NCBI GenBank assembly: GCA_030065265.1 | Contig: JASJCW010000031.1 | Coordinates: 1-29,681 of the forward strand | Direction of reading: 5' to 3' | Source of the DNA: Prochloraceae cyanobacterium | GTDB taxonomy: Bacteria; Cyanobacteriota; Cyanobacteriia; Cyanobacteriales; JASJDA01 | Length of the DNA: 29,681 nucleotides | In this document: positions 4,801 to 20,733 of the stretch, piece after piece | Position numbering within the stretch: the first letter of the stretch is position 1 | Layout: every line of letters begins with the position of its first letter | Position numbers and translations under genes: made by a program | The notes under the pieces: model-generated | Told to the model about the DNA's origin: nothing | Database searches by the model: none | The model's input: only the letters and a program-made list of their open reading frames with translations

Positions 4801-5137
4801 AAGACTCGGTGTCGGTCAATATTTTGGCGAGGTTACTCTGTTCGACGATGCACCCCACTGGGAAGGGGCGATCGCTTTTTCCGACTGCACCTTACTTAAA
4901 TTAGAAAAGAATCGCTTTATTAGTTTGATTACCCAGCGACCCCATATTATTCTAGAAATTTGCCGTTTCTTGAGTCAAAGACTTCGGGAAACAGACCGTT
5001 TTAGAACCCCGAAAAAGTTCTTACCTCCTGCTGAAAATCTCAAATTAGATTTAGATACTTTTTCAGAAACACCCCGAGATCGAGTTGCCAACAGGATTCA
5101 AAATCACAATCAAAGCGAAGCTTCTTTTAAATCATAA
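1865..5137 (+). CDS. Large multidomain membrane protein: N-terminal ~400-aa polytopic domain resembling TLC (ATP/ADP translocase-like)/MFS, central HEAT/PBS-lyase-type repeats, C-terminal cyclic-nucleotide-binding (cNMP/CAP-family) domain
   Basis: 1090-aa ORF. N-terminus SHVGAEKLPIAFILIGLFSLPAYAVFSQVVDSYSRPKLFRYALFV fits the TLC-family pattern (GAE-ipflK...P....lY..l...). The middle has repeated DxDxxVRxxAAxALGxIG-type HEAT units (e.g. EDEDPKVRNAAAKTLAAYG, LESEDRWIRTGALIATAG). The C-terminus LLKNIALFKNLSLDELLQI...GDTIFSEASWGTHLYIVAEGQVKI...GVGQYFGEVTLFDDAPHWEGAIAFSDCTLLKL matches the cNMP-binding fold (FGE..L, RTA-like region). Its stop TAA (5135-5137) overlaps the next ATG (5137-5139). Confidence 0.8.
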   Translation: MVNRLVEQSLGISRWKVGRLTQLLLLAGSVLIYSVMSMAVANSLFVSHVGAEKLPIAFILIGLFSLPAYAVFSQVVDSYSRPKLFRYALFVAIALAIGLRLLLNLEATPVYYLLLIIVFFHWDFHNNILYPSLLTDYFTTLEYKKYAPFIGITQAIGTLLGGVLTALLCQFLTTKDLLLCLPIVFAIAIAQLIYLENSQRPLDRIKTENRVSIVEALRTFPDLVKRFPLVLFLASSSFVLVIIYITSEFLWFNIYGQHFSHEALTAFLGLMRIYISILSAIVLYVITRPLLQWLGVMRMNAIYPMTTLASFILLNLNFNLGSAILLHLNGDSLYKSINLPVHQLNYNAIPPEFLGRVRTISDGVIYSVGLTLAGVLLWICNSYLELNQIVWIGIFLSAILLLIRLPMGKYYAKGLEDTIRSGSIELDDFNNYHIQLPPQSSAAIRELLTDSDRYSQIKGLEMAAKVGNPSQFLPEVRAILPQANPEFRHSIVKLFSSTTDSKMLEHFESLLEAENPILRETALEILIANQYPIAEAKLDILLLDRQKEISVLAAVAVNQLKETGEINETIFETELAEKTATTLARVIGYTGDRNLIGMLEPILASESSQVKTKVLEALTNLAQIGDRQLANLAVKEIKNSSAMVRASAFNLLKATRCKGMLRYAAIGLEDEDPKVRNAAAKTLAAYGKEGLSLAEDSLSSSNPEVVTAAIAAIGQVKTKQASDILFQYLAPDFQQLSLTRKWQQQIPQNDPSWQPFTIAIADYHQRLIQKVLYILSCLGHYKTVNTVNRILAISDRRTLANAVEVLASLNHRRFFLPVMPLLEDLVKSNEKSASNSKKDRNPWLRSKGYKILLEALESEDRWIRTGALIATAGIPYALIKDPDPFVKQVAREIFPPVDRCSLTTASAAMNRLLLLKNIALFKNLSLDELLQIDRALESEQYLAGDTIFSEASWGTHLYIVAEGQVKIIKEIDGETTEIKRLGVGQYFGEVTLFDDAPHWEGAIAFSDCTLLKLEKNRFISLITQRPHIILEICRFLSQRLRETDRFRTPKKFLPPAENLKLDLDTFSETPRDRVANRIQNHNQSEASFKS

Positions 5138-6447
5138 TGAATACTCCCACAGATTATTTACTCCATCGCGATACCTTATCTCTCAAACATCAAGAATTAG
5201 CCCTAACCTTGGCAAATACAGAAAATATTCTGATAATTCAGGATCTCGATGGGGTATGTATGGGATTAGTTAAAGATCCGCTCAAAAGAACTATTGCCAA
5301 AGAATACGTTGCAGCAACTAGATCCTTTCAAAGCCACTTTTATGTCTTAACAAACGGAGAACATATCGGCCGCAGAGGAGTTAATGGCATTATTGAAAGA
5401 GCATTTCAAGATCGGCTCAAAGTCAAAGAAGAAGGTTTATTCTTACCCGGCTTGGCTGCTGGAGGAATTCAGTGGCAAGATAATTACGGTAATATCGATC
5501 ATATCGGTGTCAGCGAAGCAGAACTGTCTTTTCTCGAAGCAGTACCCGTTAAAATTGAAACTCGCTTAAAAGAGTTTTTCGCTCGATATCCAGAAGTTTT
5601 CAATCCAGCAGAACTAGAAGCATGCATTCAAGCCACCGTACTCAAAAACAAAGTCTCCCCTACAGCTAATTTAAATACTTTTTACGACCGACTCGGCAGC
5701 GATCGCCGCGATATTTATATTTCTTTGCAACAAGCAATGCAAGATTTAATGGCCGAGTTATTGCTTGAAGCCAAACAAAAAGGTCTAGAAGATTCCTTCT
5801 TCGTCCATTATGCTCCCAACCTCGGTAAAGGCGATCGGGGCAATGAAATTCTCTGGCCCGCTAGTGCTGAAAATTCAGGAACTACTGACTTTCAATTTAT
5901 GCTCGTCGGTGCCGTCAAAGAAGCAGGAGTCGTCGTAATTTTAAACAAATACTATCATTACCAGATCGGGGAATATCCCCTCGGCAAAGATTTTAACATC
6001 AGAGCCGCCGTGCAACAAAAACAAGATCTCTTCGGCTTAATTAAAAGTAATTTCGACCCGCAAATTATGCCGAAAATAGTCGGTGTTGGCGATACGGTGA
6101 CCAGCAAAGCTGAAACTACCGATAACGGCCTCGAGTTTAAAAGAGGAGGAAGCGATCGCAACTTTTTGCAATTAATTCAAGACCTCAGCGCAGCGTTCGA
6201 TACTGGTAATATTATTACTTATATCGACAGTTCTGGCGGCGAAGTTAAAAACCGCAAACCGCTCCAATTAGCTAAATTGAGCGACGATCGCCGAGAAAAT
6301 GTTACCGAAGAATTTAAAGTCATTCAAGGGCCCGGAGACGATCGCGATCGAGAAGATCCTCTCAAGCTCAACGTTGTCTTTCCCGGAGGCCATCAAGATT
6401 ATATTAAATGCTTTGTTCGAGCAGCAAAAATGCGCGCTAGCAAATAA
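5137..6447 (+). CDS. ggpP: HAD-like phosphatase, candidate glucosylglycerol-3-phosphate phosphatase (GgpP/StpA-like)
   Basis: 436-aa ORF. It has an N-terminal DLDGV motif (HAD motif I). Its size is close to Synechocystis StpA (422 aa). It sits immediately upstream of ggpS, within a glpK/glpD/ggpS cluster. It is translationally coupled (TAATG) to the upstream sensor-like gene. The functional call comes from context plus motif, not a verified alignment. Confidence 0.5.
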   Translation: MNTPTDYLLHRDTLSLKHQELALTLANTENILIIQDLDGVCMGLVKDPLKRTIAKEYVAATRSFQSHFYVLTNGEHIGRRGVNGIIERAFQDRLKVKEEGLFLPGLAAGGIQWQDNYGNIDHIGVSEAELSFLEAVPVKIETRLKEFFARYPEVFNPAELEACIQATVLKNKVSPTANLNTFYDRLGSDRRDIYISLQQAMQDLMAELLLEAKQKGLEDSFFVHYAPNLGKGDRGNEILWPASAENSGTTDFQFMLVGAVKEAGVVVILNKYYHYQIGEYPLGKDFNIRAAVQQKQDLFGLIKSNFDPQIMPKIVGVGDTVTSKAETTDNGLEFKRGGSDRNFLQLIQDLSAAFDTGNIITYIDSSGGEVKNRKPLQLAKLSDDRRENVTEEFKVIQGPGDDRDREDPLKLNVVFPGGHQDYIKCFVRAAKMRASK

Positions 6448-7001: not shown

Positions 7002-8486
7002 ATGAAATCTTCTCTAGTCATTCTCTATCATCGCGAACCTTACGACGAAGTAGTCGAAAACGGGAAAACTCGCTATTTACCCAAAAAAAGCCCCAACGGT
7101 ATCGTTCCTACCCTCAAAAGCTTCTTCGCTGAAGTCAGTCAAGGAGCGTGGATCGCTTGGAAACAAATAACAGTCAAACAAAAAGCAAAATTTCAAGCCA
7201 AAGTGCAGGTTGAAGAAGAACAGGGAAACTACGATGTTGTCAGAATTCCTTTAAACGCAGAACAAGTTAAACAGTTCTATCACATCACTTCCAAAGAAGC
7301 ATTTTGGCCTATTTTGCACTCTTTTCCTTTTCACTTCACCTACGAATCTTCCGACTGGGAAAACTTTAAAAATATCAATCGTTTATTCGCCGAAGCAGCC
7401 TGTGAAGAAGCTGCAGACGATGCTTTAATTTGGATTCACGATTATAATTTGTGGCTAACACCTCAATACATCAGAGAAATTAAACCAGACGCAAAAATTG
7501 CATTTTTTCACCATACCCCCTTCCCTTCAGTAGACATTTTTAACATTTTGCCTTGGCGAGAAGAAATCGTTAATAGTTTGCTTTGTTGCGACATTGTCGG
7601 GTTTCACATTCCTAGGTATGCAGAAAATTTTGTTAATGTTGCTCGCAGTTTGCAGCCGTTAGAAATTTTAGAAAAAAAAGCTGTCACCGGACATATGACC
7701 CCCGTAGGGACTGCTTTAGCAGAGCCAGAAGTAACCACTAAGCTCAAGTTTAAAGGACAGGTGGTCAACGTCGATGCTTTCCCCGTCGGAACTAATCCCG
7801 GATATATTCTCTCAGTATTGAGCCAAGAAGAAACTCAAAAAAGACTCGCTCAAATTGAAGAAGAGTTACAAGGACGCAAATTAATTATTGCTGCAGGTCG
7901 AGTAGACTACGTTAAAGGCAACAAAGAAAAATTAGATGCTTTCGGTCGCTTGCTAGAACGCCGTCCCGACCTACATGGTAAAATCAACTTCGTCATGACC
8001 TGCGTGCAACCTGCGGTTGGTATGCGAGTCTATAAAACTGCTCAAGGTCAAATCGAGCAATTAGTCGGGAAAATAAACGGCAGATATGCCAAACTAGGCT
8101 GGACACCGATCTTACTCTTCACCCAACCCTTACCCCTATCAGATTTATTCTGTTACTACCGTTTAGCAGATATTTGTTGGACGACACCCCTGCGAGACGG
8201 CTTAAATTTAGTCGCCAAAGAATATGTGATCGCTCACAAAGGTGAAGGAGGAGTTCTGGTTCTTTCCGAATTCGTTGGTGCTGCAGTAGAATTGCCAGAA
8301 GCAATTTTAACTAATCCTTACTCCATCGATCGCATGGATGAATCCATCGATCGCGCCCTATCGATGCCCAAAGAAGAACAAAAAGAAAGAATGGCGAAAA
8401 TGTACGAAACCGTCAGCAAATACGATGTTAAGTATTGGGCCGATCGCCTTCTAGACTCCTTCAAAGCCATTAAAGAGCAAAATTGA
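7002..8486 (+). CDS. ggpS: Glucosylglycerol-phosphate synthase (GT20 family, OtsA-like)
   Basis: 494-aa ORF. It contains LIWIHDYNLWLTPQYIRE (compare OtsA IIWIHDYHLLP), FFHHTPFPSVDIFNILPWREEI and LNLVAKEY motifs of GT20 trehalose-P/GG-P synthases. The N-terminus SLVILYHREPYDEV... and the length (~499 aa in Synechocystis GgpS) fit GgpS rather than OtsA. It neighbours glpK and glpD. Confidence 0.8.
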   Translation: MKSSLVILYHREPYDEVVENGKTRYLPKKSPNGIVPTLKSFFAEVSQGAWIAWKQITVKQKAKFQAKVQVEEEQGNYDVVRIPLNAEQVKQFYHITSKEAFWPILHSFPFHFTYESSDWENFKNINRLFAEAACEEAADDALIWIHDYNLWLTPQYIREIKPDAKIAFFHHTPFPSVDIFNILPWREEIVNSLLCCDIVGFHIPRYAENFVNVARSLQPLEILEKKAVTGHMTPVGTALAEPEVTTKLKFKGQVVNVDAFPVGTNPGYILSVLSQEETQKRLAQIEEELQGRKLIIAAGRVDYVKGNKEKLDAFGRLLERRPDLHGKINFVMTCVQPAVGMRVYKTAQGQIEQLVGKINGRYAKLGWTPILLFTQPLPLSDLFCYYRLADICWTTPLRDGLNLVAKEYVIAHKGEGGVLVLSEFVGAAVELPEAILTNPYSIDRMDESIDRALSMPKEEQKERMAKMYETVSKYDVKYWADRLLDSFKAIKEQN

Positions 8487-10063: not shown

Positions 10064-10213
10064 AGTAGGGAACGGGTCAAAATAATAAATTGAACTGCAA
10101 TTATAGAGCAAGTCGCGAGTAAAATTCCGAGGAGAAAATCTTACTTAAATTAATTTAAAATTCAAGATTTTTTTACTCTTTATTCAAAAAATTTTACTCT
10201 CTTGATGCTCTAT

Positions 10214-12721
10214 TTAATCTTCCGATTTTTGAATCGGTTTTAATAATAAAGCTTGACTGTTAGCTAAATTAAAACAACGCAGATCTGCTAAATTATTATT
10301 ATCATTTAGTCCTACAGAAGCAAGATCGACAGTCCATTCTGACATATCCAGTTGCAACCAGTCCCCTAAAGTAATTTCAAAAGGCTCGCCTTCGAGATGG
10401 GCTACCATTGCGATTTGTTCGGTAGGATTTTCTGGATTAGAGCGAATCCCGTAAAAAATCGTGCGATCGCCTTCACTAATTTTATTAAAACGATCTGTTG
10501 CTTTGAGATTCCCATTCAACCAGGAGCGATCGCGACGAAATTGTCGCAATTTAAGATTGAATTCCGTATTGTCAGGATTGAGATCTTCTAAGTAATGGGA
10601 AACATTGCAAACTTCATAGCAATCTTCCATAAACATTTGGGCAAATTTTTTAAATCTTTCTACATTTAGCTTGCGAATGTAACTGATAATTTCAGGAGTA
10701 TCCAGAAATTTCATGAAGAAAAGATCGGTATCGGAAATATCAATGCGATCGTTTTTAATTAAACTGTGAAAAGTTTGAATTACCTCTAAGAGATCGTAAT
10801 TTCTTTCTAATATGGTTTCTTCTAAAAACCTACCAAAAGCCCGCAACTGTTCTAAAGTTTTAAAACCGAGAGATTTGACCCGAGGAAAAACCCATTCTCG
10901 ATCGTAAAATTCCGGGCTAATTTGCCAATCTAAAAAGCCCATTTCTTCGGAAATAACTTTAACACCGTAGCGATCGTCAGTATTGCGAAAAAACATCCAG
11001 GGCGATCTGGTAGTACAATTAATAAAATCCATCGGCAAACCCGGAGAAAAACCGTAAACCCACAAAGTGACGGCTTGATTGTCGTAGGCATGGCGAATTA
11101 CTTCAGTTAAATTTTCCCCCAATCGCCAGTTGATTGGCTTGCTAGGATCTACTTGAGAACCGCGTCTGAGGGTATCGTGATTGCCGCAACCAGTGATCCA
11201 GCGATCGCCCATCTGAATTACTTCGCAGACTCGCCGCCATTTCCGTTCCCAAAAACCAGTCAAAGTGGGGGTATTGTGGGCAAAAATTAGCGGCCCCCAT
11301 TGGTAAGATTCGGGTTTGAGTTCGATTAATTCCCGATAGGTAGATTTTTCTTCCCAACCTTCTTCGGGCCAGGGGCGACCGTCTTCATAAATCGTGAAAA
11401 GCAATCTTTGACAGCCATTTATTTCTTGAACTAAATCGCTCATTGCCAACAAATAGGCATCGTCTTGTTCTACTCTTCCAGATAAAGGATTAAAAAAGCG
11501 GAAATCCTGACCGCCATCGACGCGAATACCATCAGCCCCAGTGTTAATTTTACGACGCTGCAGTTCCAAAAATATCGCCCGCACCGTCGGCAATTGATGG
11601 TTGAGATCTTGCCCGTACATATTCGGGCCTTTAAGATACTGACGGTTAATTAATAATTCGGCTTGATTGTCAGCATGACCGTAAACTAAATCGTAAATGA
11701 TTTGAATCGGGCCCGTAGGAAAATTATGTAAAGTAGCGATAAAATCAATTAGTTCGTCCGGGCGCAGACTTTGTAAAATAGCTGGGTTGGTAGCACTAGA
11801 ACCGAGAATAGGAACGTCGTAGCCCCAATCTTGAGTATTTGGTTTTAATAATTTAATTGGCGATCTGTTGAGGGGAGGAAGTATTCTCGCTTTGCGATCT
11901 GATTCTTTATCAGCAAACAAAAAAAATTCACTTTCTTGCTGGTAATTTTGCCTGTATTCGATCGGCGGTTCGATCGGCAATAACTGTACTGCATCGTAAC
12001 CGACATAACATTCTTCTGCCGGAGTAAGCGGAATATTTTCTCGGATTTTGCGACTGATTTGACGGTAAATTTCCGTTAAACCGGCGATCGTTCCCGATCG
12101 CGAAGCAGTACCGATATGAAGTTGTAAAATAGCAACTGGCGCGCCAACTCGAGGCACTTCTTCATCCCCGTTCGCTCTTGAAGTGCGCCGCAAATATTCC
12201 ATATCTTCCCGATTGGCCTGCAAACTCTCCATATCGTAAAGTTCGGCCGGAGCAAAGATACCGAAAGGTAGAGAATAGGGCATCATATCCCGAATTGTTT
12301 GCAATTGCCCTTTTTGATTGTAGTAGCGCAACCAATAAAAACAACCAGGTCGATCTTTAGTTCCAGCTTGCATCCCTTCGATCGCACCCCAAAAAAATTC
12401 ACCTTGCTGTTTTAAACGCAAACAGTCGCGGCGAAAATGAGTAGTTTGCATCGGCGATCGCCAGTCGATTTCTTCTAAGGGAGTAAAAACTTCTAAATAT
12501 ATATCTCGCGGTCGCATTATTTCCCCAGTTAATTCCGGGGCCCAAAAACCTATTTCAGTCAAACCATTCTGACGGTGGTAGTGCGCACCTAATTTAGTAG
12601 CTAAGGCTTCTGCTCTCTCAAAAACAGTTGCATCGGACTGTTCTATTTCTTTAGCCCAGTCCAATAATTCTTGGGTTGCATCCTCAGCAAGTTTGACAAA
12701 ATCTTTTGTTTCTATAACCAT
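10214..12721 (-). CDS. gghA: GH13-like glycoside hydrolase, candidate glucosylglycerol hydrolase (GghA-like)
   Basis: 835-aa ORF. GYDAVQLLPIEP resembles GH13 region I (GxTHVELLPV). ADGIRVDGGQDF resembles GH13 catalytic region II (DGFRxDAAKH). Its size is close to Synechocystis Slr1670/GghA. It lies directly upstream of glpK on the same strand, as gghA does relative to glpK in Synechocystis. Confidence 0.5.
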   Translation of the reverse strand: MVIETKDFVKLAEDATQELLDWAKEIEQSDATVFERAEALATKLGAHYHRQNGLTEIGFWAPELTGEIMRPRDIYLEVFTPLEEIDWRSPMQTTHFRRDCLRLKQQGEFFWGAIEGMQAGTKDRPGCFYWLRYYNQKGQLQTIRDMMPYSLPFGIFAPAELYDMESLQANREDMEYLRRTSRANGDEEVPRVGAPVAILQLHIGTASRSGTIAGLTEIYRQISRKIRENIPLTPAEECYVGYDAVQLLPIEPPIEYRQNYQQESEFFLFADKESDRKARILPPLNRSPIKLLKPNTQDWGYDVPILGSSATNPAILQSLRPDELIDFIATLHNFPTGPIQIIYDLVYGHADNQAELLINRQYLKGPNMYGQDLNHQLPTVRAIFLELQRRKINTGADGIRVDGGQDFRFFNPLSGRVEQDDAYLLAMSDLVQEINGCQRLLFTIYEDGRPWPEEGWEEKSTYRELIELKPESYQWGPLIFAHNTPTLTGFWERKWRRVCEVIQMGDRWITGCGNHDTLRRGSQVDPSKPINWRLGENLTEVIRHAYDNQAVTLWVYGFSPGLPMDFINCTTRSPWMFFRNTDDRYGVKVISEEMGFLDWQISPEFYDREWVFPRVKSLGFKTLEQLRAFGRFLEETILERNYDLLEVIQTFHSLIKNDRIDISDTDLFFMKFLDTPEIISYIRKLNVERFKKFAQMFMEDCYEVCNVSHYLEDLNPDNTEFNLKLRQFRRDRSWLNGNLKATDRFNKISEGDRTIFYGIRSNPENPTEQIAMVAHLEGEPFEITLGDWLQLDMSEWTVDLASVGLNDNNNLADLRCFNLANSQALLLKPIQKSED

Positions 12722-12847
12722 AATGTTAATACGTTGGAAATATTATTGCTGATTTTTAAACAATACAGCAAAATTAACACTCAATATTTCTTTGGCAAAA
12801 AACCGAACTATGATGGAATTTAGTAAACATTCATAAAATCGTAAATC

Positions 12848-14533
12848 GTGAGAGACTATCAATCAATTAAAAATACAAGCTACGAAGCAATAATTATCGG
12901 TGGAGGGATAAATGGAGCGGGAGTAGCTCGAGATGCTGCTTTAAGAGGATTAAAAACTATTTTAATCGAAAAAAACGATTTTGCTAGTGGTAGTTCTAGT
13001 TGGTCTACTAGATTAGTGCATGGAGGGTTGCGATATCTAGAATATTTTGAATTACCTTTAGTAAGAGAGTCTTTAAAAGAAAGAGAAATTTTATTAAACA
13101 TCGCCCCTCATTTAGTTAAACCTCTTTTATTAACCGTACCAGTTTACGGCGATCGCTCTCGCCCTTATTGGAAAATTTGGGCTGGAATGATTCTGTACGA
13201 TCTTTTTAGCTTTGATAAAACCCTCCCGGGTTATAGAATGCTAAATAAAGCAAAATTTAAGCGGATTTTTCCGACTTTAGATCCTGAAAATTTAAGTGGT
13301 GGAGCGCAATATTACGACGCTCGAGTTGCTCATGCTGAAAGATTGTGTCTTGAAAATATTATTTCAGCTAAAGAAGCCGGTGCAGACGTACTCAATTACG
13401 TCAAAGTAACTCGATTGCACCTTGAAGGGAAGAAAATTACTCATCTTACCTGCAAAGATACCTTGACAGGAGAAGAATTTACAGTTAAAGGCACAGAAGA
13501 TGCAGTGATTGTAAACACTTCAGGCCCTTGGGTAGATGAAGTATGTGGTTCTATTGAAATCGAAGCAACCAAAGCCGACAGTTCCAAGGCGATCGTTCAC
13601 GGTAAAAAAATGGGGCCGACTAAAGGCAGCCATATTGTTGTCGATCCTTTTCCAGGTGCGCCAGAAAGCGGTCTTTACGTTGAAGCTAAATCCGACGGTC
13701 GTCCTTTCTTTATTTTGCCTTGGTTGGGTAAATATTTAATCGGAACTACGGATTTTCCCTATCACAAAGATCTCGAATCGATCAAAGCAGATAACGATGA
13801 AATCGATTATTTATTAACAGAAACAAATAATATTTTACCGACAGCTAATTTATCGCGCCAAGATATTAAATTCACCTATTCTGGAGTGCGTCCTTTACCA
13901 AACGAAGCAGGAAAAAAAGCCGGGAGTATTACTCGCTCTCACATTCTCTTTGACGGAAAAAAAGAAGGGGTATTTAATTTAATTTCTCTAATTGGCGGCA
14001 AACTAACAACCTATCGTCAAGTAGGCGAAGAAATAGTCGATGCGATTTTAAAAAAACAAGGCAAACCAATTTCTAGCTCTAAAACGGCTCTTCAACCTTT
14101 ACCCGGAGCTATTAAAGCCTCTAATCCTCTGATTCAAAAAACTATCGATCTATATCGGGATAAAGTTTCTTTAAACATTATTGCCCATCTCTTTTCTCTT
14201 TACGGAGCTAGAGCTGTCTCAGTTTTAGAATTAACCGAAGAAAATCCTGAATTAGCCGAAACTATTCATCCCGAATTACCAGATATTAAAGCCCAACTCG
14301 TCTATGGAGTCCGAGTTGAATTTGCCCTGAGTTTAGTAGATTTGATTCGCCGTCGCACTGCGATCGCCATGGAGGCTAATTACGGCTTAGATGTACTGAC
14401 AACCTCGATCGAAGTTTTACAAAAATATTGCAATTGGAGCGCAGAACGTTGCGAACTGGCTCGTTCTGAATATATTACTTATATGAAAAACAATTGCATT
14501 CCCGATTTTGAATTAGAGGCAAACTTAATATAG
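12848..14533 (+). CDS. glpD: FAD-dependent glycerol-3-phosphate dehydrogenase
   Basis: YEAIIIGGGINGAGVARDAALRGLKTILIEKNDFASGSSSWSTRLVHGGLRYLE is the classic GlpD N-terminal FAD-binding signature (GGGINGAG...D.A.GTSS.S.KL.HGGLRYLE). 561 aa. Confidence 0.9.
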   Translation: MRDYQSIKNTSYEAIIIGGGINGAGVARDAALRGLKTILIEKNDFASGSSSWSTRLVHGGLRYLEYFELPLVRESLKEREILLNIAPHLVKPLLLTVPVYGDRSRPYWKIWAGMILYDLFSFDKTLPGYRMLNKAKFKRIFPTLDPENLSGGAQYYDARVAHAERLCLENIISAKEAGADVLNYVKVTRLHLEGKKITHLTCKDTLTGEEFTVKGTEDAVIVNTSGPWVDEVCGSIEIEATKADSSKAIVHGKKMGPTKGSHIVVDPFPGAPESGLYVEAKSDGRPFFILPWLGKYLIGTTDFPYHKDLESIKADNDEIDYLLTETNNILPTANLSRQDIKFTYSGVRPLPNEAGKKAGSITRSHILFDGKKEGVFNLISLIGGKLTTYRQVGEEIVDAILKKQGKPISSSKTALQPLPGAIKASNPLIQKTIDLYRDKVSLNIIAHLFSLYGARAVSVLELTEENPELAETIHPELPDIKAQLVYGVRVEFALSLVDLIRRRTAIAMEANYGLDVLTTSIEVLQKYCNWSAERCELARSEYITYMKNNCIPDFELEANLI

Positions 14534-14536
14534 AGA

Positions 14537-16054
14537 TTGAGGATAATGGATAATAATTTTTTTAAGGACTCGTTGGATAAAAAAGTTATCGAACAACGGG
14601 TTAGTGCAATTAGCCAAGCTAAGGTGGGATTTTATAGCATCGGTCTTTATCCGGCCTCTCTTGCTTACAATTCGGCAATGCAAAAAAGCAATAAATCTCT
14701 TCTATTAGCTACCCGGCCGGGAAGATCTCTCCTCGGGGCATTTTCTGAAGAGGAAATTAAAGGAATGGATCCCCGACACCTCGTCAAGATGCGTCGCATG
14801 GCATCCCATAAAGAAAACGGAAAATCCGTACCGAATACTCTAGAATACTTGATCGCAAAGTGCGATTTAATCGTCTTGAGTTCTAATAGTAAATACATCA
14901 AGCAAGATCTCGACCAAGCTTGCAATCTTAGAAAAAAGCTCGGTCGCACTAATGTCGTGCTTTCCTGTCTAGCAGGTTCTTTCAACCACGATGAAGCTAA
15001 TAATGAGTCTTATGTATTGTGCGAAAAATATCCCAATCTGGCCTTTTTCTCTGGATTTCATCGACACGGTTCGTTAAGAGATCCGGTAGATAGTTTTACA
15101 GCTAATTTTTGCCATCCCAATTCTTTAACAGCTTTGATCGGGGCCCACATACTGAATCAACTTTCTCCGAACATTCAAGTTTCTCCTGGAATTCACAATG
15201 TTGAAGCGCAATATTTGAAAGCTGCTAAAAATATGGCATCTATTTTTGCCGGTTTTGGTTATGTTTATCACGAGCAAAATCCAGGGATTCTGCCTACTCT
15301 ATTGACTTTGTTGCTCCATCAATGTTTAGATCAGGCTGCGACCGTTTCTATGTCGCGACAAGATCGCGAAAAGCTTTACACTCAGCAAACCATTGCTTTA
15401 ACGGAGTTAGGTTATGCTATACCGAGAATTGAAGCAGTCTTAAATAAAGGTGGTTTTACCGAAAAAGTTCGCGATCATACTTTTTCTCAATTAACGGCGA
15501 TGGTTGCTGACGTGCGAGGAAGTATGATGCTTCCAGTCACTGGGAAACCTACCAGAAATTTTCAAGCCGGACAAGCTTTAGCCTACGGTATGTCGAAACA
15601 CGGTCGCTGTCCGATCGACGTTAAAGAATTTGAACAGTGGTGTAAAGATGCTGGATTAAATGTCGGATCTTTAGAAGGTTTAAAAGCTTTGAAATACTGG
15701 CCGCAAATCGAAGCAAAATACTCAATTCAAAATCACGATGCTTCAATGGTTAATCTTCTTTATAAGGGATTGTATGGCACTGAAGAAGAAAAAGATTTTG
15801 CTTTTGAAGTGATGACACAAAGTCGAGAATTATCAAATTATTGTCAAGAGTCGGTTCGACATACCCACAGTCGCAAGTATGCAGAAGCCCTTAATCATAT
15901 CGAACAATTAGAAGCACTCGAATTAATTTCAAACGCTATTATTGCCGACAACGCGCGCAAAGCTATTCGCAATAACGATAATCCAATTGAAGAAAGAGAA
16001 TTAAATTCAGATACTCCAGCTTATTTGCGAGCAATTGACTCTATCGAACAATAG
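14537..16054 (+). CDS. Hypothetical protein with a GpsA-like (NAD-dependent G3P dehydrogenase / opine-DH fold) core, degenerate dinucleotide motif, ~120-aa C-terminal extension
   Basis: 505-aa ORF starting 3 nt after the glpD stop. Weak but collinear resemblance to GpsA: KVGFYSIGLYPASLA versus KIAVLGAGSWGTALA (glycines lost), CDLIVLSSNSKYIKQ versus ADLVLFVVPSQAFRE, LSCLAGSF versus VISGPTF, and TGKPTRNFQAGQALAYGMS versus TDNQSRNRRFGMMLGQGMD. Assignment is tentative. Confidence 0.4.
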   Translation: MRIMDNNFFKDSLDKKVIEQRVSAISQAKVGFYSIGLYPASLAYNSAMQKSNKSLLLATRPGRSLLGAFSEEEIKGMDPRHLVKMRRMASHKENGKSVPNTLEYLIAKCDLIVLSSNSKYIKQDLDQACNLRKKLGRTNVVLSCLAGSFNHDEANNESYVLCEKYPNLAFFSGFHRHGSLRDPVDSFTANFCHPNSLTALIGAHILNQLSPNIQVSPGIHNVEAQYLKAAKNMASIFAGFGYVYHEQNPGILPTLLTLLLHQCLDQAATVSMSRQDREKLYTQQTIALTELGYAIPRIEAVLNKGGFTEKVRDHTFSQLTAMVADVRGSMMLPVTGKPTRNFQAGQALAYGMSKHGRCPIDVKEFEQWCKDAGLNVGSLEGLKALKYWPQIEAKYSIQNHDASMVNLLYKGLYGTEEEKDFAFEVMTQSRELSNYCQESVRHTHSRKYAEALNHIEQLEALELISNAIIADNARKAIRNNDNPIEERELNSDTPAYLRAIDSIEQ

Positions 16055-16105: not shown

Positions 16106-16177
16106 TTACCCCAAAAGTTTTGGGGTATTTTCTAGATAAAACCCTTCAATTATCAAAGTTTTAATCCCAATTCTGTT
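16106..16177 (-). pseudogene. Relic of a methyltransferase 3' end (degenerate duplicate of the C-terminus of the 17097..17714 gene)
   Basis: Minus-strand translation gives NRIGIKTLIIEGFYLENTPKLLG*. The C-terminus of the adjacent SAM-MTase reads ...KSIIIEEFYVENAPKIMGYYY. Identical or similar at 15 of 18 positions, K[ST][IL]IIE[EG]FY[VL]EN[AT]PK[IL][ML]G, including the stop-proximal position. There is no upstream ORF continuation (stop immediately 5'). Confidence 0.35.
16107..16133 (+). terminator. Rho-independent terminator candidate downstream of the 505-aa ORF
   Basis: TACCCCAAAAG TTTTGGGGTA forms a perfect 9-10-bp inverted repeat (ACCCCAAAA/TTTTGGGGT), followed by TTTTCT. It lies 53 bp after the stop at 16054. 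Confidence 0.5.
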
Positions 16178-16323: not shown

Positions 16324-17091
16324 TCAAGCATTTTTAATAAAGCGAATAATTTCGCGAACGTTGCCTAAAAATTTACTGTCTTCTGCGAGCTGAGAAATAG
16401 CATTTTTTGCTGCTTCAGATAAGCGTTGATGTTCTCTTTGGTTATCCGCTTTTAATCCTTCTAAATTTGCCCTTAATTTTGCCGTATTTTCGCGAATTTG
16501 TTGCCATTCTCTTTGCTGAATGTTAACTAAGGAACTATCGTTTTTTGGATCTAATTTTTCCGAAATTTTTTGAACGTTATTCTCTAAGAATATCAAGCGA
16601 GATTGCAATTCAATTACATCTTCTCGAGGATATTTGATTTCACGGCGAATTGAAGATATCCTAGCCTCTAGGTACTGATAAAAACTAATCGCAGGACGCA
16701 ATCCAGTTAACAATAAAGCAGCAGCAGAACTAATATAACCGATCGCACTAATTCCGGTAGCTGCTAAAATATAAAGTCCGATCGCCGAAATAAGATGCAA
16801 TGCGATCGCAATTATAATCGACCAACGAGATACCAAAGTAACGTATTCAATTTGTTTGTTATCTACTGTTATTCCTTTTTCTTGCGATGTTTCGCTTTCT
16901 ATTATTACTTGTTTGGCTTCAAAATAGATATTCCAAGGTATAGTTACAATAACTACTAACCACCAAAAACTAGCTATTCCGAAGATCCAATCGATTAAAT
17001 TACCTGCCGGAATGTGAAGCCATTCTAAAATTCCAAATAATAGTAAAACAAGCAAGCCTAATCCTATAGTAAACATTACTGACGCAATCAT
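16324..17091 (-). CDS. Hypothetical membrane protein: 4 predicted TM helices followed by a long coiled-coil C-terminal domain
   Basis: 255-aa ORF. Hydrophobic segments IASVMFTIGLGLLVLLLFGIL, IFGIASFWWLVVIVTIPW, WSIIIAIALHLISAIGLYILAA and IGYISSAAALLLTGL. The C-terminus is rich in heptad-like E/K/Q/L (LQSRLIFLENNVQKISEKL...LRANLEGLKADNQREHQRLSEAAKNAISQLAEDS). Its start lies 5 nt downstream of the MTase stop (operon). Confidence 0.6.
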   Translation of the reverse strand: MIASVMFTIGLGLLVLLLFGILEWLHIPAGNLIDWIFGIASFWWLVVIVTIPWNIYFEAKQVIIESETSQEKGITVDNKQIEYVTLVSRWSIIIAIALHLISAIGLYILAATGISAIGYISSAAALLLTGLRPAISFYQYLEARISSIRREIKYPREDVIELQSRLIFLENNVQKISEKLDPKNDSSLVNIQQREWQQIRENTAKLRANLEGLKADNQREHQRLSEAAKNAISQLAEDSKFLGNVREIIRFIKNA

Positions 17092-17096
17092 ATTTT

Positions 17097-17714
17097 TTAG
17101 TTTGATTTTGTTGCAATTCCTTTGTAATAATATCCCATAATTTTCGGGGCATTTTCTACATAAAATTCTTCGATTATTATGCTTTTAAATTGGTTTTCAA
17201 GAATTTTTTTGATATTACGATTTAAATGACAACCATCCCCGATCGCTTTTTGAATTGGATTAAGTCTATTTTGCCAAACTTGAATTTTCGCTTCGTTACT
17301 CAATCCGTGTTCGATAAAATAAAATTTGCCGTTAGGTTTTAAGACGCGATAAATTTCGGCTATAGCTCGATCTATATTGGCAATACTACAAAGCGTCCAA
17401 GTGCTAACTATACTATCAAAATTATTGTCTGGAAAAGGTAAATCTTCACTGCTTAATAAGCGGTTATCGACGGTAATTTTAGATTCTTGAATTCTTTTTC
17501 GTGCCAATCTATTCATCCCCGGATTGGGATCGATAGTTGTTACTTTGGTGATATTTTCTGGATAATAAGCTAAATTTAATCCAGTACCAAAACCAATTTC
17601 TAAGACTTCTCCAGATACTTCCGATAATAGTTGTTTGCGATATTTACTAGAGATCGGATCTGATAAACTCAAATCCAATAAATAAGGTAAAATGAGACGA
17701 GAATAAAGGCTCAT
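17097..17714 (-). CDS. Class I SAM-dependent methyltransferase
   Basis: 205-aa ORF with motif I VLEIGFGTGLNLAYY, post-I acidic D (TIDPN), motif II/III (FDSIVSTWTLCS, LKPNGKFYFIEH). Substrate unknown. Confidence 0.8.
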   Translation of the reverse strand: MSLYSRLILPYLLDLSLSDPISSKYRKQLLSEVSGEVLEIGFGTGLNLAYYPENITKVTTIDPNPGMNRLARKRIQESKITVDNRLLSSEDLPFPDNNFDSIVSTWTLCSIANIDRAIAEIYRVLKPNGKFYFIEHGLSNEAKIQVWQNRLNPIQKAIGDGCHLNRNIKKILENQFKSIIIEEFYVENAPKIMGYYYKGIATKSN

Positions 17715-18112: not shown

Positions 18113-18709
18113 TTAATATGATTCTACCAATTGTTGCAAACCGGATATTTTAATTCCTTCGCCGATCGCTTGCACGTTCCAACCTTCATTTTCGCGATAA
18201 ATTTCAGCCATAATCATTCCCGTACTACCTTGATATTGTTGACCGGATAGATTGTAACGAGCGATTTCTCGATTGTTAGCAGTATCGACTAAGCGAACGA
18301 AAGCATTATTAACTTGACTAAAATCTTGCTGGCGATCGAACGCTTGAAAAATACTGACAGCAAAAACTAACTTATGAATATTTTCGGGTATTTTAGGCAA
18401 ATCGACCAGAATTTGTTCGTCGTCTCCTTCCCCTTCACCTGTGAGATTATCGCCTAAATGGGTAATTCCTCCAGAAACGTGAGCGAGATTGTTATAGTAA
18501 ATAACATTCATATTGTTATCTAATTTGCCCTGAGCATTTAAACACAAAACCGAAGCATCTAAATCTAGATTTGAACTGGCTTTAAAAATGCCAAGAAAAC
18601 CCCCAGAAGATTGGGCTATATCCCAACCTAAACCACACATAATTGTAGTTAAACCTGGGGACTCTTTTTTTAAAGAAATACGCTGTCCTTTTTGTAAATT
18701 AATAGACAT
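18113..18709 (-). CDS. TerD-family stress protein (divergent paralog, TerZ/TerX-like)
   Basis: 198 aa. MSINLQKGQRISL..GLGWD...GDNLTGEGEGDDEQI...VQAIGEG pattern of the TerD/CABP1 fold, with ~35-40% identity to the three downstream paralogs. Confidence 0.85.
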   Translation of the reverse strand: MSINLQKGQRISLKKESPGLTTIMCGLGWDIAQSSGGFLGIFKASSNLDLDASVLCLNAQGKLDNNMNVIYYNNLAHVSGGITHLGDNLTGEGEGDDEQILVDLPKIPENIHKLVFAVSIFQAFDRQQDFSQVNNAFVRLVDTANNREIARYNLSGQQYQGSTGMIMAEIYRENEGWNVQAIGEGIKISGLQQLVESY

Positions 18710-18721
18710 TGTTTCAATCTT

Positions 18722-19300
18722 TTAACTGTTGTAGCGGTTGAGGAGAGCTTGTAAGCCGCCCTGATAACCCGATCCTACAGCATTGACGCGCCACTCGCCA
18801 TCCTTGCGATAAAATTCGGCCATGATAATCGCAGTTTCGATCGAAAAGTCTTCAGCTAAGTCGTAACGTAAGACCTCTTCTTGAGTTTCGACATTAACCA
18901 AACGCACGTAAGCATTACTAACTTGGCCGAAATTTTGTTTGCGTTTTTCCGCTTCGTAAATAGTTACGCTGACGACCATTTTATTGACATCCGGGGGGAT
19001 TTTACGGAAATCTGCAATTAAAGCTTCGTCATCTCCTTCTCCTTCACCGGTTCGATTATCTCCCATCAATTGCACCGATTTATCTGGATCGGGACTGGTA
19101 AGATTGTTATAAAAAATAAAGTGTTTTTCTGTAATTAACTTCTGATCGGCACCAACAAGAAAAACAGATAAGTCTAAGTCAAATTCATTACCCGTATCCG
19201 TAGCATTGATATCCCATCCTAACCCGATTAAAGCCGCACTCAGCCCTGGTGCTACCTTATCTAACGATACTCTTTGACCTTTTTGTAGTGAAATTGCCAT
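18722..19300 (-). CDS. terD: TerD-family tellurium-resistance/Ca-binding stress protein
   Basis: 192 aa. It aligns end-to-end with E. coli TerD (MAISLQKGQRVSLDK..IGLGWD..FDLDLSVFL..FIFYNNL..GDNRTGEGEGDDE..VTIYEAE..QNFGQVSNAYVRLVN..RYDL.EDFS.ETA.IMAEFYR..GEWR..AVGSGYQGGL). Confidence 0.9.
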   Translation of the reverse strand: MAISLQKGQRVSLDKVAPGLSAALIGLGWDINATDTGNEFDLDLSVFLVGADQKLITEKHFIFYNNLTSPDPDKSVQLMGDNRTGEGEGDDEALIADFRKIPPDVNKMVVSVTIYEAEKRKQNFGQVSNAYVRLVNVETQEEVLRYDLAEDFSIETAIIMAEFYRKDGEWRVNAVGSGYQGGLQALLNRYNS

Positions 19301-19338
19301 ATTATAATTTTAGTTTTTGCGAGGATATTACAATTTTT

Positions 19339-19914: not shown

Positions 19915-20137
19915 ATATTTCTACCTAATCGTAAATTGCAAACTAATTTTATTATTATCGATTTGCTCGAGCGATCGATGTAGGGATAATACCCATTGGG
20001 AGCGTCGGGAGAGGTTAGTCGTTAGTGGGGAGTGTTGAAAGCGTCTGCAGAAAAAAATCAGCTGATTTTACCAATTTACAATTAATCAACCAATTTCAAA
20101 CTAAACAACTACCTACTACCTACTCCCTAACTTCGCT

Positions 20138-20713: not shown

Positions 20714-20733
20714 TATTTTTCCTACCTAATTTT

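What the first reader, a model, noticed from the sequence alone, without database searches (positions are those of the whole stretch)
14537..16054. GpsA-like protein with a degenerate NAD-binding glycine motif, translationally coupled to glpD
The 505-aa ORF starts 3 nt after the glpD stop. It shows a collinear but weak resemblance to NAD(P)-dependent glycerol-3-phosphate dehydrogenase (GpsA) / 6PGDH-like folds. The GxGxxG dinucleotide fingerprint is replaced by IGLYPASLA, and there is an extra ~120-aa C-terminal region. Pairing a catabolic FAD-GlpD with a GpsA-like protein of opposite nominal direction is odd. It may be a pseudo-enzyme or regulator, a glycerol/G3P-sensing partner of GlpD, or a divergent dehydrogenase supplying G3P to GgpS.
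Basis: inference. Interest (0 to 1): 0.6.

Follow-up and report, generated by a model that had tools for sequence, protein, structure and literature searches.

The report
Divergent GpsA-like protein in glucosylglycerol cluster
The gene after glpD encodes an unannotated, very highly conserved cyanobacterial relative of NAD(P)H-dependent glycerol-3-phosphate dehydrogenase that keeps the phosphate-binding half of the active site, has lost one catalytic lysine and two of the three cofactor-loop glycines, and recurs next to salt-protection (glucosylglycerol) genes.

Summary
The ORF is real. Its likely start is ATG 14546 (502 aa), not TTG 14537. No Pfam or NCBIfam model reaches threshold, and every named homologue is called "hypothetical protein".

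- **Kept:** K228-N229, T336-R337-N338 and E377-G378. These correspond to human GPDH K204/N205 and the R269/N270 phosphate gripper.
- **Changed:** GxGxxG has become SxGxxP. The catalytic Lys (human K120) is Gly in all 121 cyanobacterial members aligned, but is still Lys in the three non-cyanobacterial relatives.

The family is almost confined to cyanobacteria: 402 species, 170 of 502 positions at least 98% identical. It sits next to different glucosylglycerol genes in different lineages, and it is present in both freshwater Cyanobium strains reported to be the only ones of 67 carrying ggpS/ggpP/glpK.

Best reading: a rewired DHAP/G3P-handling enzyme of the glucosylglycerol/glycerol module. Activity is not shown, and a non-catalytic G3P-binding role remains open. 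I class it as a new variant of a known kind.

The parts
14546..16054 (+). CDS of the GpsA-like protein 'X' (502 aa plus stop). The start is set at the ATG.
14537..14545 (+). Probably untranslated leader between glpD and X.
   Evidence: Sequence read directly. N-termini of homologues.
14636..14665 (+). Residues 31-40, SIGLYPASLA: the degenerate dinucleotide loop (GxGxxG has become SxGxxP). G33 and Y35 are kept.
   Evidence: hhalign map Ec G12/G14/G17 to S31/G33/P36. Column counts: S31 121/124, G33 122/124, Y35 124/124, P36 121/124.
14975..14992 (+). Residues 144-149, GSFNHD. G144 occupies the place of the catalytic Lys of the GpsA 'TKG' motif (human K120). H148-D149 are conserved only in the cyanobacterial clade.
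   Evidence: hhalign Ec K110 to G144. Position 144 is G in 121 and K in the 3 non-cyanobacterial relatives. H148 and D149 are each 118/124.
15053..15067 (+). Residues 170-174, GFHRH. This replaces the GpsA 'GPSxA' loop at the domain interface.
   Evidence: hhalign Ec G139/P140/A143 to G170/F171/H174. Conservation: G170 124/124; H172 123/124, R173 121/124, H174 118/124.
15227..15232 (+). K228-N229, equivalent to the GpsA K-N pair (E. coli K195-N196, human K204-N205).
   Evidence: hhalign. Invariant in 124/124. The role of K204/N205 is taken from PMC9119304.
15281..15493 (+). Residues 246-316: family-specific extra sequence inside the C-terminal domain (helices 246-270, 274-279, 285-288, then a loop). 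It is highly conserved but has no counterpart in GpsA.
   Evidence: Gapped against GpsA in hhalign. Mean column conservation 0.83-0.89. Model secondary structure, with pLDDT below 50 only for 296-310.
15509..15523 (+). D322...S326, invariant. Candidate equivalents of the GpsA Asp/Thr pair (human D260/T264), by spacing and helix position.
   Evidence: 124/124 conserved. hhalign instead puts S326 opposite the Asp and P330 opposite the Thr, so the equivalence is my inference. It rests on the +4 spacing, on the helix ending at 327, and on the shorter loop in P0241.
15551..15559 (+). T336-R337-N338, equivalent to the GpsA S/T-R-N phosphodianion gripper (E. coli S258-R259-N260, human R269-N270).
   Evidence: hhalign. 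124/124 invariant. Roles taken from PMC9119304.
15674..15679 (+). E377-G378, equivalent to the conserved E-G of bacterial GpsA (E. coli E285-G286), next to the flexible loop that closes over the substrate.
   Evidence: hhalign. 124/124 invariant.
15827..16051 (+). Residues 428-502: helical C-terminal extension absent from GpsA. The first part is well conserved (…LSNYCQESVR…RKY…). The acidic tail is variable and ends in a PAY…IEQ helix.
   Evidence: The default hhalign alignments end at residue 427. Helices 426-437, 440-450, 455-478 and 492-501. Conservation 0.89 falling to 0.58.
16107..16127 (+). Terminator-like hairpin (9-bp stem followed by a T run), 53 nt after the X stop. Probable end of a glpD-X transcript.
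   Evidence: Pattern scan. Sequence. This is a consensus match only.
12848..14533 (+). glpD, FAD-dependent G3P dehydrogenase, directly upstream of X.
   Evidence: PF01266 plus PF16901. NF008899 at 361.8 bits against a cut-off of 360.
10214..12721 (-). gghA (glucosylglycerol hydrolase, GHL5 family), divergent from glpD-X.
   Evidence: PF14872 at 1395 bits. Function of the Synechocystis homologue from PMC6753628.
8558..10111 (-). glpK, glycerol kinase.
   Evidence: TIGR01311 at 660.7 bits against a cut-off of 590.
7002..8486 (+). ggpS, glucosylglycerol-phosphate synthase (GT20).
   Evidence: PF00982 at 492.7 bits. 60-72% identical to the ggpS genes in related GG clusters.
5137..6447 (+). ggpP/stpA, glucosylglycerol-phosphate phosphatase.
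   Evidence: PF09506 at 559 bits.

Best explanation
X is a deeply diverged paralogue of NAD(P)H-dependent G3P dehydrogenase (GpsA fold), almost confined to cyanobacteria, most of them marine or halotolerant.

Proposed role: X binds dihydroxyacetone phosphate (DHAP) or G3P in a GpsA-type site and interconverts them with a nicotinamide cofactor. This ties central carbon metabolism to the GG module. It would supply G3P to GgpS when salinity rises, and could return G3P (from GghA plus GlpK) to DHAP when salinity falls.

The catalytic centre is rewired relative to GpsA:
- The K120-type lysine is gone. A clade-specific His-Asp (H148-D149) or the GFHRH loop is proposed to take over as the acid.
- The dinucleotide loop is SxGxxP rather than GxGxxG.

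What is shown: the fold, homology to GpsA, which residues are kept and which lost, the taxonomic range, and the gene neighbourhoods.

What is inferred: substrate, cofactor use, catalytic activity, direction of flux and physiological role.
For: **Fold**

**Homology**
- hhalign of the family against six GpsA sequences gives 95% probability, E 3.3e-8, 322 columns.
- 6 of 15 family members give sub-threshold hits to PF07479, and one to PF01210.

**Site**
- K228-N229, T336-R337-N338, E377-G378, D322 and S326 are invariant in 124/124 sequences, including the three distant relatives.
- In human GPDH, R269 and N270 bind the phosphodianion and K204 helps form the oxyanion hole. The substitutions R269A, N270A and K204A cost 9.1, 5.6 and 3.1 kcal/mol (PMC9119304).

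**Nucleotide-domain loops are under strong constraint, not drifting**
- G33 122/124, Y35 124/124, R57 122/124, R60 121/124 and N114-S115 124/124.
- Positions 26-50 average 0.85 conservation.

**Context**
- In the window X follows glpD inside a cluster of ggpP, ggpS, glpK and gghA.
- PCC 7336-type loci have ggpS-glpD-X.
- L032 has gghA-X-glpK.
- Six marine Synechococcus loci have ggpP divergent from X.
- L082 has gghA 2 kb downstream. L075 has a homologue of the window's MFS/GPH transporter just downstream.
- In all, 14 of 83 loci carry a gene of this cluster within 8 kb, in at least five different arrangements.

**Phylogenetic profile**
- X is present in Cyanobium ATX 6A2 (L068) and Cyanobium CH-040 (P0371).
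- These are reported as the only 2 of 67 freshwater picocyanobacteria with ggpS/ggpP/glpK (PMC9361551).
Against: - No activity, ligand-binding or expression data exist for any member.
- Two hallmark features are missing in the cyanobacterial clade. These are the first and third glycines of GxGxxG, and the K120-type lysine (K120A costs 5.3 kcal/mol in human GPDH). The three non-cyanobacterial relatives still have that lysine, so this is a derived loss of the kind seen in pseudoenzymes.
- hhalign does not align D322/S326 with the GpsA Asp/Thr pair.
- Most X loci (69 of 83) show no GG gene within 8 kb.
- Very high conservation (170 of 502 positions at least 98% identical) fits a protein constrained by partners as well as it fits an enzyme.
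- I could not see model coordinates, so no claim about the three-dimensional clustering of the new His/Asp/Arg residues has been tested.
Confidence: 0.5

Rival explanations
1. X is a non-catalytic GpsA-derived protein (pseudoenzyme). It still binds G3P or DHAP and acts as a sensor or regulator of the GG/glycerol module, for instance by modulating GlpD, GgpS or GghA according to the G3P level.
For: - The catalytic Lys (G144 in 121/121 cyanobacterial members, K in the 3 outgroup relatives) and two of the three loop glycines were lost in this clade specifically.
- The phosphate gripper is retained, so ligand binding is likely to be preserved.
- X is more conserved than any neighbouring enzyme. 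Against PCC 7336: X 79%, GlpK 66%, GgpS 60%, GlpD 54%, GghA 51%.
- X has conserved family-specific additions (246-316 and 428-450) that could be interaction surfaces.
Against: - K228, N229, D322 and S326, and the nucleotide-domain loops, are invariant. A pure ligand sensor would not need all of them.
- New invariant His/Asp/Arg residues appear exactly in the loops that line the GpsA active site (H148-D149, H172-R173-H174). This looks like replacement rather than decay.
- No partner is consistently adjacent.
Confidence: 0.25
2. X is an active oxidoreductase, or another kind of enzyme, of the GpsA fold that acts on a different phosphorylated substrate or uses a different cofactor. Examples would be another phospho-polyol or phospho-ketose linked to compatible-solute metabolism, or a non-nicotinamide cofactor bound by the altered Rossmann loop.
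For: - The phosphate gripper is kept, but the residues around the reacting carbonyl are changed: K to G144, GPSxA to GFHRH.
- Conserved extra sequence of about 70 residues sits within the substrate-binding domain.
- The dinucleotide loop is unusual.
- Many invariant His and Cys residues (H148, H172, H174, H190, H217, H242, H311; C106, C141, C159, C189, C366, C433) have no counterpart in GpsA.
Against: - The neighbours all make or use G3P or glycerol (ggpS, glpK, glpD, gghA).
- No other phosphorylated intermediate is known in that pathway apart from GG-phosphate, which already has its phosphatase (PMC6753628).
- K-N and R-N are the G3P/DHAP-specific signature of the family.
Confidence: 0.15
3. 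X is a dedicated partner of FAD-GlpD. Either it is a subunit, or it is the cytosolic half of a G3P shuttle that passes NAD(P)H electrons to the quinone pool through GlpD.
For: - In this window there is a 12-nt glpD-X junction with no terminator-like site between the genes.
- glpD-X adjacency also occurs in PCC 7336-type loci.
- Synechocystis GlpD was found only in the membrane-associated fraction (PMC8670252).
- NAD-GPDH plus FAD-GPDH shuttles are established in eukaryotes (general knowledge).
Against: - Adjacency to glpD is seen in only 5 of 83 loci (two of them, L001 and L002, carry the same protein).
- Elsewhere X sits between gghA and glpK, with glpD on the other strand (L032), or next to ggpP without glpD (marine Synechococcus).
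- The close spacing is unique to the window.
Confidence: 0.08
4. X belongs to another 6PGDH-like family, such as ketopantoate reductase, opine dehydrogenase or a beta-hydroxyacid dehydrogenase, and the GpsA resemblance is only fold-level.
Against: - There is a gap of about 11-14 Z units between the six GPDHs and everything else, in both models.
- The GpsA-specific K-N, S/T-R-N and E-G motifs align and are invariant.
- The only sub-threshold Pfam hits that recur, or that fit the fold, are the two GPDH domains.
Confidence: 0.02

Closest known systems
GpsA / NAD(P)H-dependent glycerol-3-phosphate dehydrogenase (EC 1.1.1.94/1.1.1.8; Pfam PF01210 + PF07479; e.g. PDB 3k96, 1txg, 1z82, 1x0v, 1evy)
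   Same: - Two-domain architecture: an N-terminal Rossmann domain and a helical C-terminal domain.
- The alignment is collinear over nearly the whole GpsA length.
- K-N, S/T-R-N and E-G motifs are conserved. These include one oxyanion-hole lysine and the phosphodianion gripper.
- The middle glycine and the aromatic residue of the dinucleotide loop are conserved.
   Different: - Sequence identity is only 12-16%, and no Pfam or NCBIfam model reaches threshold.
- GxGxxG has become SxGxxP.
- The catalytic Lys of 'TKG' has become Gly.
- 'GPSxAxE' has become 'GFHRH'.
- X is about 160 residues longer: an N-terminal helix, conserved extra sequence at 246-316 and a 75-aa C-terminal extension.
- The family is almost confined to cyanobacteria and is far more conserved within them than its neighbouring enzymes.
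Osmoregulated GPDH isoforms (yeast Gpd1; Dunaliella salina GPDH, PDB 6iuy)
   Same: - They provide a functional analogy: an extra GPDH-fold protein tied to osmolyte production whose backbone is G3P or glycerol.
   Different: - Those enzymes have canonical cofactor and catalytic motifs and proven activity (general knowledge, not tested here).
- X has neither.
- Dunaliella GPDH is fused to a phosphatase-like domain; X is not.
Ketopantoate reductase (PanE/ApbA), the next-nearest fold
FAD-dependent GlpD/GlpA (PF01266 + PF16901), the upstream neighbour
   Same: Handles the same metabolite pair (G3P/DHAP). It is co-located with X in this window and in PCC 7336-type loci.
   Different: Unrelated fold and cofactor. 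It is a neighbour of X, not a homologue.

Membership tests
GpsA / NAD(P)H-dependent G3P dehydrogenase | Two-domain GPDH fold (Rossmann N-domain plus helical C-domain) | tested here: met
GpsA / NAD(P)H-dependent G3P dehydrogenase | Sequence matches the curated family models (PF01210, PF07479; NCBIfam gpsA) above threshold | tested here: not met
   No Pfam or NCBIfam hit for X even at E 0.1. Relatives give only sub-threshold hits: PF07479 in 6 of 15 with best E 0.0033, PF01210 in 1 of 15 with E 0.0094. PDB sequence searches with family profiles find no GPDH.
GpsA / NAD(P)H-dependent G3P dehydrogenase | Remote homology detectable by profile-profile comparison | tested here: met
   hhalign of A2 against A3 gives 95.1% probability, E 3.3e-8. 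A4 against A3 gives 74.8% in local mode and 95.7% in global mode.
GpsA / NAD(P)H-dependent G3P dehydrogenase | GxGxxG dinucleotide-binding fingerprint | tested here: not met
   The aligned loop is S31-I-G33-L-Y35-P36. The first and third Gly are replaced in 121/124 members.
GpsA / NAD(P)H-dependent G3P dehydrogenase | Phosphodianion gripper Arg-Asn (human R269/N270) | tested here: met
   R337-N338 align and are invariant in 124/124.
GpsA / NAD(P)H-dependent G3P dehydrogenase | Lys-Asn of the C-domain (human K204/N205) | tested here: met
   K228-N229 align and are invariant in 124/124.
GpsA / NAD(P)H-dependent G3P dehydrogenase | Catalytic Lys of the 'TKG' loop (human K120) | tested here: not met
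   It aligns to G144. This position is Gly in 121 cyanobacterial members and Lys only in P0140, P0144 and P0241.
GpsA / NAD(P)H-dependent G3P dehydrogenase | Asp/Thr pair that positions the lysines (human D260/T264) | tested here: inconclusive
   hhalign puts S326 and P330 at these positions. However, an invariant D322-x3-S326 pair with the same +4 spacing lies at the end of the corresponding helix. A residue-level structural superposition was not available.
GpsA / NAD(P)H-dependent G3P dehydrogenase | NAD(P)H-dependent reduction of DHAP to G3P | not testable with these tools
   This needs an enzyme assay or genetic complementation.
Ketopantoate reductase (PanE/ApbA) | Closest structural and sequence family | tested here: not met
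Cyanobacterial glucosylglycerol (GG) gene module (ggpS, ggpP, gghA, glpK, glpD) | Recurrent genomic association with GG genes | tested here: met
   14 of 83 loci carry a homologue of a gene of the window's GG cluster within 8 kb of X (a GG enzyme in 13, the MFS/GPH transporter in L075), in at least five arrangements. The window itself does too.
Cyanobacterial glucosylglycerol (GG) gene module (ggpS, ggpP, gghA, glpK, glpD) | Co-occurrence with ggpS/ggpP across genomes | tested here: inconclusive
   X is present in both freshwater Cyanobium strains that carry ggpS/ggpP/glpK (L068; P0371; PMC9361551), and in many marine Synechococcus. Absence from genomes without GG genes could not be checked, because whole genomes were not searchable.
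Cyanobacterial glucosylglycerol (GG) gene module (ggpS, ggpP, gghA, glpK, glpD) | Salt-regulated expression | not tested
   I found no transcriptome or proteome data for any member. The Synechocystis salt studies I read describe only a ggpS/glpD operon and do not mention such a gene. Whether Synechocystis has a homologue was not checked.

The most novel reading that the evidence does not exclude
X may be the unrecognised biosynthetic G3P dehydrogenase of marine Synechococcus and other GG-producing cyanobacteria.

A comparative study of 132 picocyanobacteria reports that marine strains have only the FAD-type enzyme (glpA) and lack gpsA (PMC9361551). Yet every cell needs G3P for membrane lipids, and these strains also need it in bulk for GG.

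X is present throughout marine Synechococcus, always annotated 'hypothetical', and is kept even by a genome-reduced dinoflagellate cyanobiont (P0359). If X reduces DHAP, it fills that pathway gap with an enzyme that uses a re-engineered catalytic centre (His/Asp in place of Lys) and an atypical cofactor loop.

I could not verify the absence of gpsA myself. The only direct check available showed no canonical gpsA in the 1.18 Mb of window and fetched loci, apart from the E. coli control locus.
Probability: 0.3. Interest if true: 0.75.

Novelty: new variant of a known kind. Interest (0 to 1): 0.6.

Why it matters
- **GG is the main compatible solute of moderately halotolerant and marine cyanobacteria.** Its pathway is treated as complete, and the supply of G3P is usually credited to the FAD enzyme GlpD (for example PMC8670252), which normally runs in the oxidative direction.
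- **This gene has not been placed in that picture.** It is conserved, GG-linked, GpsA-derived and present in at least 402 species, including ocean-abundant Synechococcus. One cluster was seen on 246 contigs, including Tara data. In the sources that name it, it is 'hypothetical protein', apart from a JGI 'glycerol-3-phosphate dehydrogenase' label on one cluster.
- **If it is active,** it revises how the G3P node is fed under salt stress, and perhaps how marine Synechococcus makes its lipid backbone. It would also offer a natural experiment in replacing the well-studied K120/D260 catalytic pair of GPDH.
- **If it is inactive,** it is a clean case of an enzyme turned metabolite sensor.
- **Either way the tests are simple:** complementation of an E. 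coli gpsA mutant, and a DHAP/NAD(P)H assay.

Tried and rejected
**Searches that gave nothing**
- Direct family assignment: Pfam and NCBIfam gave nothing for X.
- PDB sequence searches with the family profiles A1 and A2 gave only chance-level hits to thioredoxin and P-Rex1.
- Rfam on the whole window: no RNA family.
- The afdb50 fold library was not available.

**A conserved neighbour across all X loci**
- Clustering of 2,096 flanking ORFs found none present in more than 11 of 83 loci. The 'always next to glpD' idea is therefore rejected.

**Context of the three non-cyanobacterial relatives**
- It was uninformative.
- P0241 has no further relatives in the protein database.
- P0259 looks like a frameshifted translation and was dropped.

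**Testing whether X-bearing genomes lack gpsA**
- No canonical gpsA lies in the window or in the cyanobacterial and metagenome loci fetched; the only hits were to the E. coli control locus L084.
- A tblastn of E. coli GpsA against plasmids returned no cyanobacterial sequence to use as a query.
- I therefore report the claim of PMC9361551 as unverified.

**Literature**
- Searches for slr1671, sll1084 and SYNPCC7002_A2851-A2853 found nothing relevant.
- The Slr1670 paper and the Cyanobacterium DS4 paper do not mention such a gene.
- The legend of Fig. 6B of PMC6753628 lists 'gpsA' among genes co-located with ggpS/gghA. This may be X, since JGI calls one cluster 'glycerol-3-phosphate dehydrogenase', but the figure itself cannot be read.

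**Other**
- I looked for a GgpR-like small ORF upstream of ggpS in the window. None was evident.
Full report
**1. The observation**

An ORF runs from TTG 14537 to the stop at 16052-16054 on the + strand. It begins 3 nt after the TAG of the upstream gene at 14531-14533. All 27 homologues first aligned begin M-x-N-(S/N)-F-F. This corresponds to ATG 14546, which is preceded by GAGGA at 14539-14543. The product is therefore most likely 502 aa, with a 12-nt gap to the upstream gene.

The upstream gene is a bona fide FAD-dependent glpD. It matches PF01266 plus PF16901, and NF008899 just above its cut-off. No terminator-like site lies between the two genes. A 9-bp hairpin followed by a T run sits 53 nt after the X stop, at 16107-16127. 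A glpD-X transcript is plausible, but translational coupling is not shown.

The peptide IGLYPASLA is present at residues 32-40.

**2. Surroundings**

The window holds a complete GG cluster:

| Coordinates | Strand | Gene |
|---|---|---|
| 261-1676 | + | MFS/GPH sucrose-symporter-like transporter |
| 1865-5137 | + | MFS-HEAT-cNMP-binding fusion |
| 5137-6447 | + | ggpP |
| 7002-8486 | + | ggpS |
| 8558-10111 | - | glpK |
| 10214-12721 | - | gghA (GHL5) |
| 12848-14533 | + | glpD |
| 14546-16054 | + | X |

The roles of these enzymes in GG synthesis and breakdown are described in PMC6753628.

**3. What X is**

X matches no Pfam or NCBIfam model. PDB sequence searches with family profiles find nothing meaningful. 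Structure prediction settles the fold.

- A first model from 28 sequences (pLDDT 68.8) and a second from 124 sequences (pLDDT 85.1, pTM 0.82) both show an N-terminal beta-alpha-beta domain followed by a helical domain.

To test homology by sequence, I took E. coli gpsA from MG1655 and harvested five PDB GPDH sequences from printed alignments. I aligned these six (A3) and compared them with the X family.

- hhalign gives 95% probability, E 3.3e-8, over 322 collinear columns. X residues 25-427 align to E. coli GpsA 5-332 (repeated).
- Six of 15 family members give sub-threshold hits to PF07479, and one to PF01210.

X is therefore a genuine but very distant GpsA homologue.

**4. Anatomy relative to GpsA**

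The conserved hydrogen-bonded network of human GPDH is Q295, R269, N270, N205, T264, K204, D260 and K120. Substitutions cost 9.1 (R269A), 6.5 (D260G), 5.6 (N270A), 5.3 (K120A) and 3.1 (K204A) kcal/mol (PMC9119304).

The hhalign map gives the following:

| E. coli GpsA | Human GPDH | X | Status |
|---|---|---|---|
| K195-N196 | K204-N205 | K228-N229 | kept |
| S258-R259-N260 | R269-N270 | T336-R337-N338 | kept |
| E285-G286 | — | E377-G378 | kept |
| G12/G14/G17 | — | S31/G33/P36 | first and third Gly lost |
| K110 | K120 | G144 | lost |
| G139-P-S-x-A | — | G170-F-H-R-H | changed |
| D248/T252 | D260/T264 | S326/P330 (as aligned) | uncertain |

All the "kept" residues are invariant in 124/124 sequences.

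On the last row, D322 and S326 are themselves invariant in 124/124. They have the same +4 spacing as the GpsA Asp/Thr pair and lie at the end of the corresponding helix (317-327). The loop that follows is four residues shorter in the relative P0241. I therefore think D322/S326 are the true equivalents of the Asp/Thr pair, but this is my inference.

X is longer than GpsA for three reasons. It has an N-terminal helix, extra sequence at about 246-316, and a helical C-terminal extension at 428-502. The internal extra sequence is among the best conserved parts of the protein, at 0.83-0.89.

**5. The family**

- The protein database holds about 637 homologues. Apart from one JGI cluster labelled "glycerol-3-phosphate dehydrogenase", all that carry a name are "hypothetical" or "uncharacterised".
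- A scan of one genome per species found 402 species. All 80 loci listed are from cyanobacteria or unnamed MAGs: Pleurocapsales/Xenococcaceae, Acaryochloris, Synechococcus PCC 7336, Leptolyngbya, Lyngbya, marine Synechococcus and Cyanobium.
- An exhaustive HMM search of 1.84 billion cluster representatives found essentially one full-length 50% cluster plus fragments. It also found three usable distant full-length relatives, from non-cyanobacterial or unidentified contigs: P0140, P0144 and P0241.
- Among 240 full-length members, 170 of 502 positions are at least 98% identical. Identity to the window protein never falls below 59%.
- X is more conserved than any neighbour. Against PCC 7336: X 79%, GlpK 66%, GgpS 60%, GlpD 54%, GghA 51%. 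Against WH7803: X 66%, GgpP 42%.
- The three outgroup relatives keep the 'AKG/AKS' lysine, and two of them keep the second and third glycines (GPYGSG). All 121 cyanobacterial members have 'AGS' and 'SxGLYP', and they have gained H148-D149. The loss of the lysine and glycines is thus a derived feature of the cyanobacterial clade.

**6. Context elsewhere**

Fourteen of 83 X loci carry a homologue of a gene of the window's GG cluster within 8 kb of X. Thirteen carry a GG enzyme gene and one (L075) the MFS/GPH transporter. They fall into several different arrangements:

| Loci | Arrangement |
|---|---|
| PCC 7336-type: L001, L002, L026, L030 (partial in L028) | ggpS-glpD-X |
| L032 | gghA-X-glpK |
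| Six marine Synechococcus loci (L062, L073, L074, L076, L078, L080) | ggpP divergent from X |
| L082 | gghA 2 kb downstream |
| L075 | homologue of the window's MFS/GPH transporter downstream |

No single neighbour is conserved across the family. Even the closest relatives of the window protein lack glpD upstream. The association is with the GG/glycerol module, not with glpD as such.

A comparative study reports that ggpS, ggpP and glpK occur in only two of 67 freshwater picocyanobacteria, Cyanobium ATX 6A2 and CH-040 (PMC9361551). Both strains have X (L068; P0371).

The same paper states that marine strains carry the FAD enzyme (glpA) but not gpsA. I could not verify this. All I can say is that no canonical gpsA lies in the 1.18 Mb of window and fetched loci, apart from the E. 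coli control locus.

**7. How it most likely works**

Shown: GpsA fold and homology, an intact phosphodianion gripper and K-N pair, strong constraint on the nucleotide-domain loops, and recurrent linkage to genes that make or consume G3P.

Inferred: X binds DHAP/G3P and interconverts them with NAD(P)(H). It would feed GgpS on salt upshift and possibly drain G3P made by GghA plus GlpK on downshift. A clade-specific His-Asp or the GFHRH loop would replace the missing lysine as the acid. Arg57 and Arg60 after strand 2 suggest an NADP-type 2'-phosphate site.

I give this reading 0.5. The rivals are:
- a non-catalytic G3P/DHAP sensor or regulator (0.25), favoured by the derived loss of the lysine and glycines and by the extreme conservation;
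- a different substrate or cofactor (0.15);
- a dedicated GlpD partner or shuttle (0.08), weakened by the variable context;

**8. Comparison with what is known, and verdict**

X works from a GpsA scaffold but fails three membership criteria for GpsA: the curated sequence models, GxGxxG, and the TKG lysine. It passes the tests for fold, remote homology, the R-N gripper and the K-N pair. I found no paper describing it. The legend of Fig. 6B of PMC6753628 lists a 'gpsA' in ggpS/gghA clusters, which may be this gene.

I class X as a new variant of a known kind, with interest 0.6. The most novel reading still open is that X is the unrecognised biosynthetic G3P dehydrogenase of marine Synechococcus (probability about 0.3). 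This can be tested directly by complementing an E. coli gpsA mutant and by a DHAP/NAD(P)H assay.

Noticed in passing
L062:13338-15168; L019:12805-14474; also L016, L022, L024, L035, L073, L074, L076, L077, L078: An APH-family kinase-like gene (PF01636) lies 3.7-4.8 kb downstream of X on the same strand, and in all but L076 it is followed by a 173-193 aa protein with no family hit. This holds in both Pleurocapsales-type and marine Synechococcus loci, although the genes in between differ completely. It may be a remnant of an older cluster.
   Followed up: partly
window 1865-5137 (+): A 1090-aa fusion of an MFS-like N-terminus, HEAT repeats and a cyclic-nucleotide-binding domain. Its stop overlaps the ggpP start at 5137, so it looks co-transcribed with GG synthesis genes.
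   Followed up: no
window 261-1676 (+); L075:2102-3304: An MFS/GPH transporter resembling sucrose/H+ symporters (sub-threshold TIGR01301) heads the cluster. A 70% identical homologue lies about 310 nt downstream of X in Leptolyngbya cf. ectocarpi. It may be a compatible-solute transporter.
   Followed up: partly
window 18113-20713 (-): Four tandem TerD-domain genes of 191-198 aa each. A methyltransferase (17097-17714) and a coiled-coil protein (16324-17091) lie between them and X.
   Followed up: no
window 20644-21777 (+); L046:5908-7905: lpxD lies 4.6 kb downstream of X in the window. In Acaryochloris loci, two conserved genes directly upstream of X and divergent from it look by eye like lpxA (hexapeptide-repeat acyltransferase) and lpxB; I ran no family scan on them. 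This may be coincidence, or a hint of a link to lipid metabolism.
   Followed up: no
P0359: The cyanobiont of the dinoflagellate Ornithocercus magnificus, which I understand (from memory, not checked here) to have a reduced genome, keeps a full-length X (74% identical to the WH7803 protein; its contig is 1.58 Mb). This suggests the gene is not dispensable there.
   Followed up: no
window 12722-12847: A 126-bp AT-rich divergent intergenic region lies between gghA (-) and glpD (+). In Synechocystis the equivalent divergent region is gghA/ggpS and holds ggpR (PMC6753628). Here ggpS is elsewhere in the cluster, and no GgpR-like ORF was evident upstream of it.
   Followed up: partly
X residues C106, C141, C159, C189, C366, C433 (window 14861-15844): Six cysteines are at least 98% conserved across 240 family members, and two more (C260, C355) are at least 90% conserved in the 124-sequence alignment. 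None has a counterpart in GpsA. They may reflect redox regulation or metal binding.
   Followed up: no
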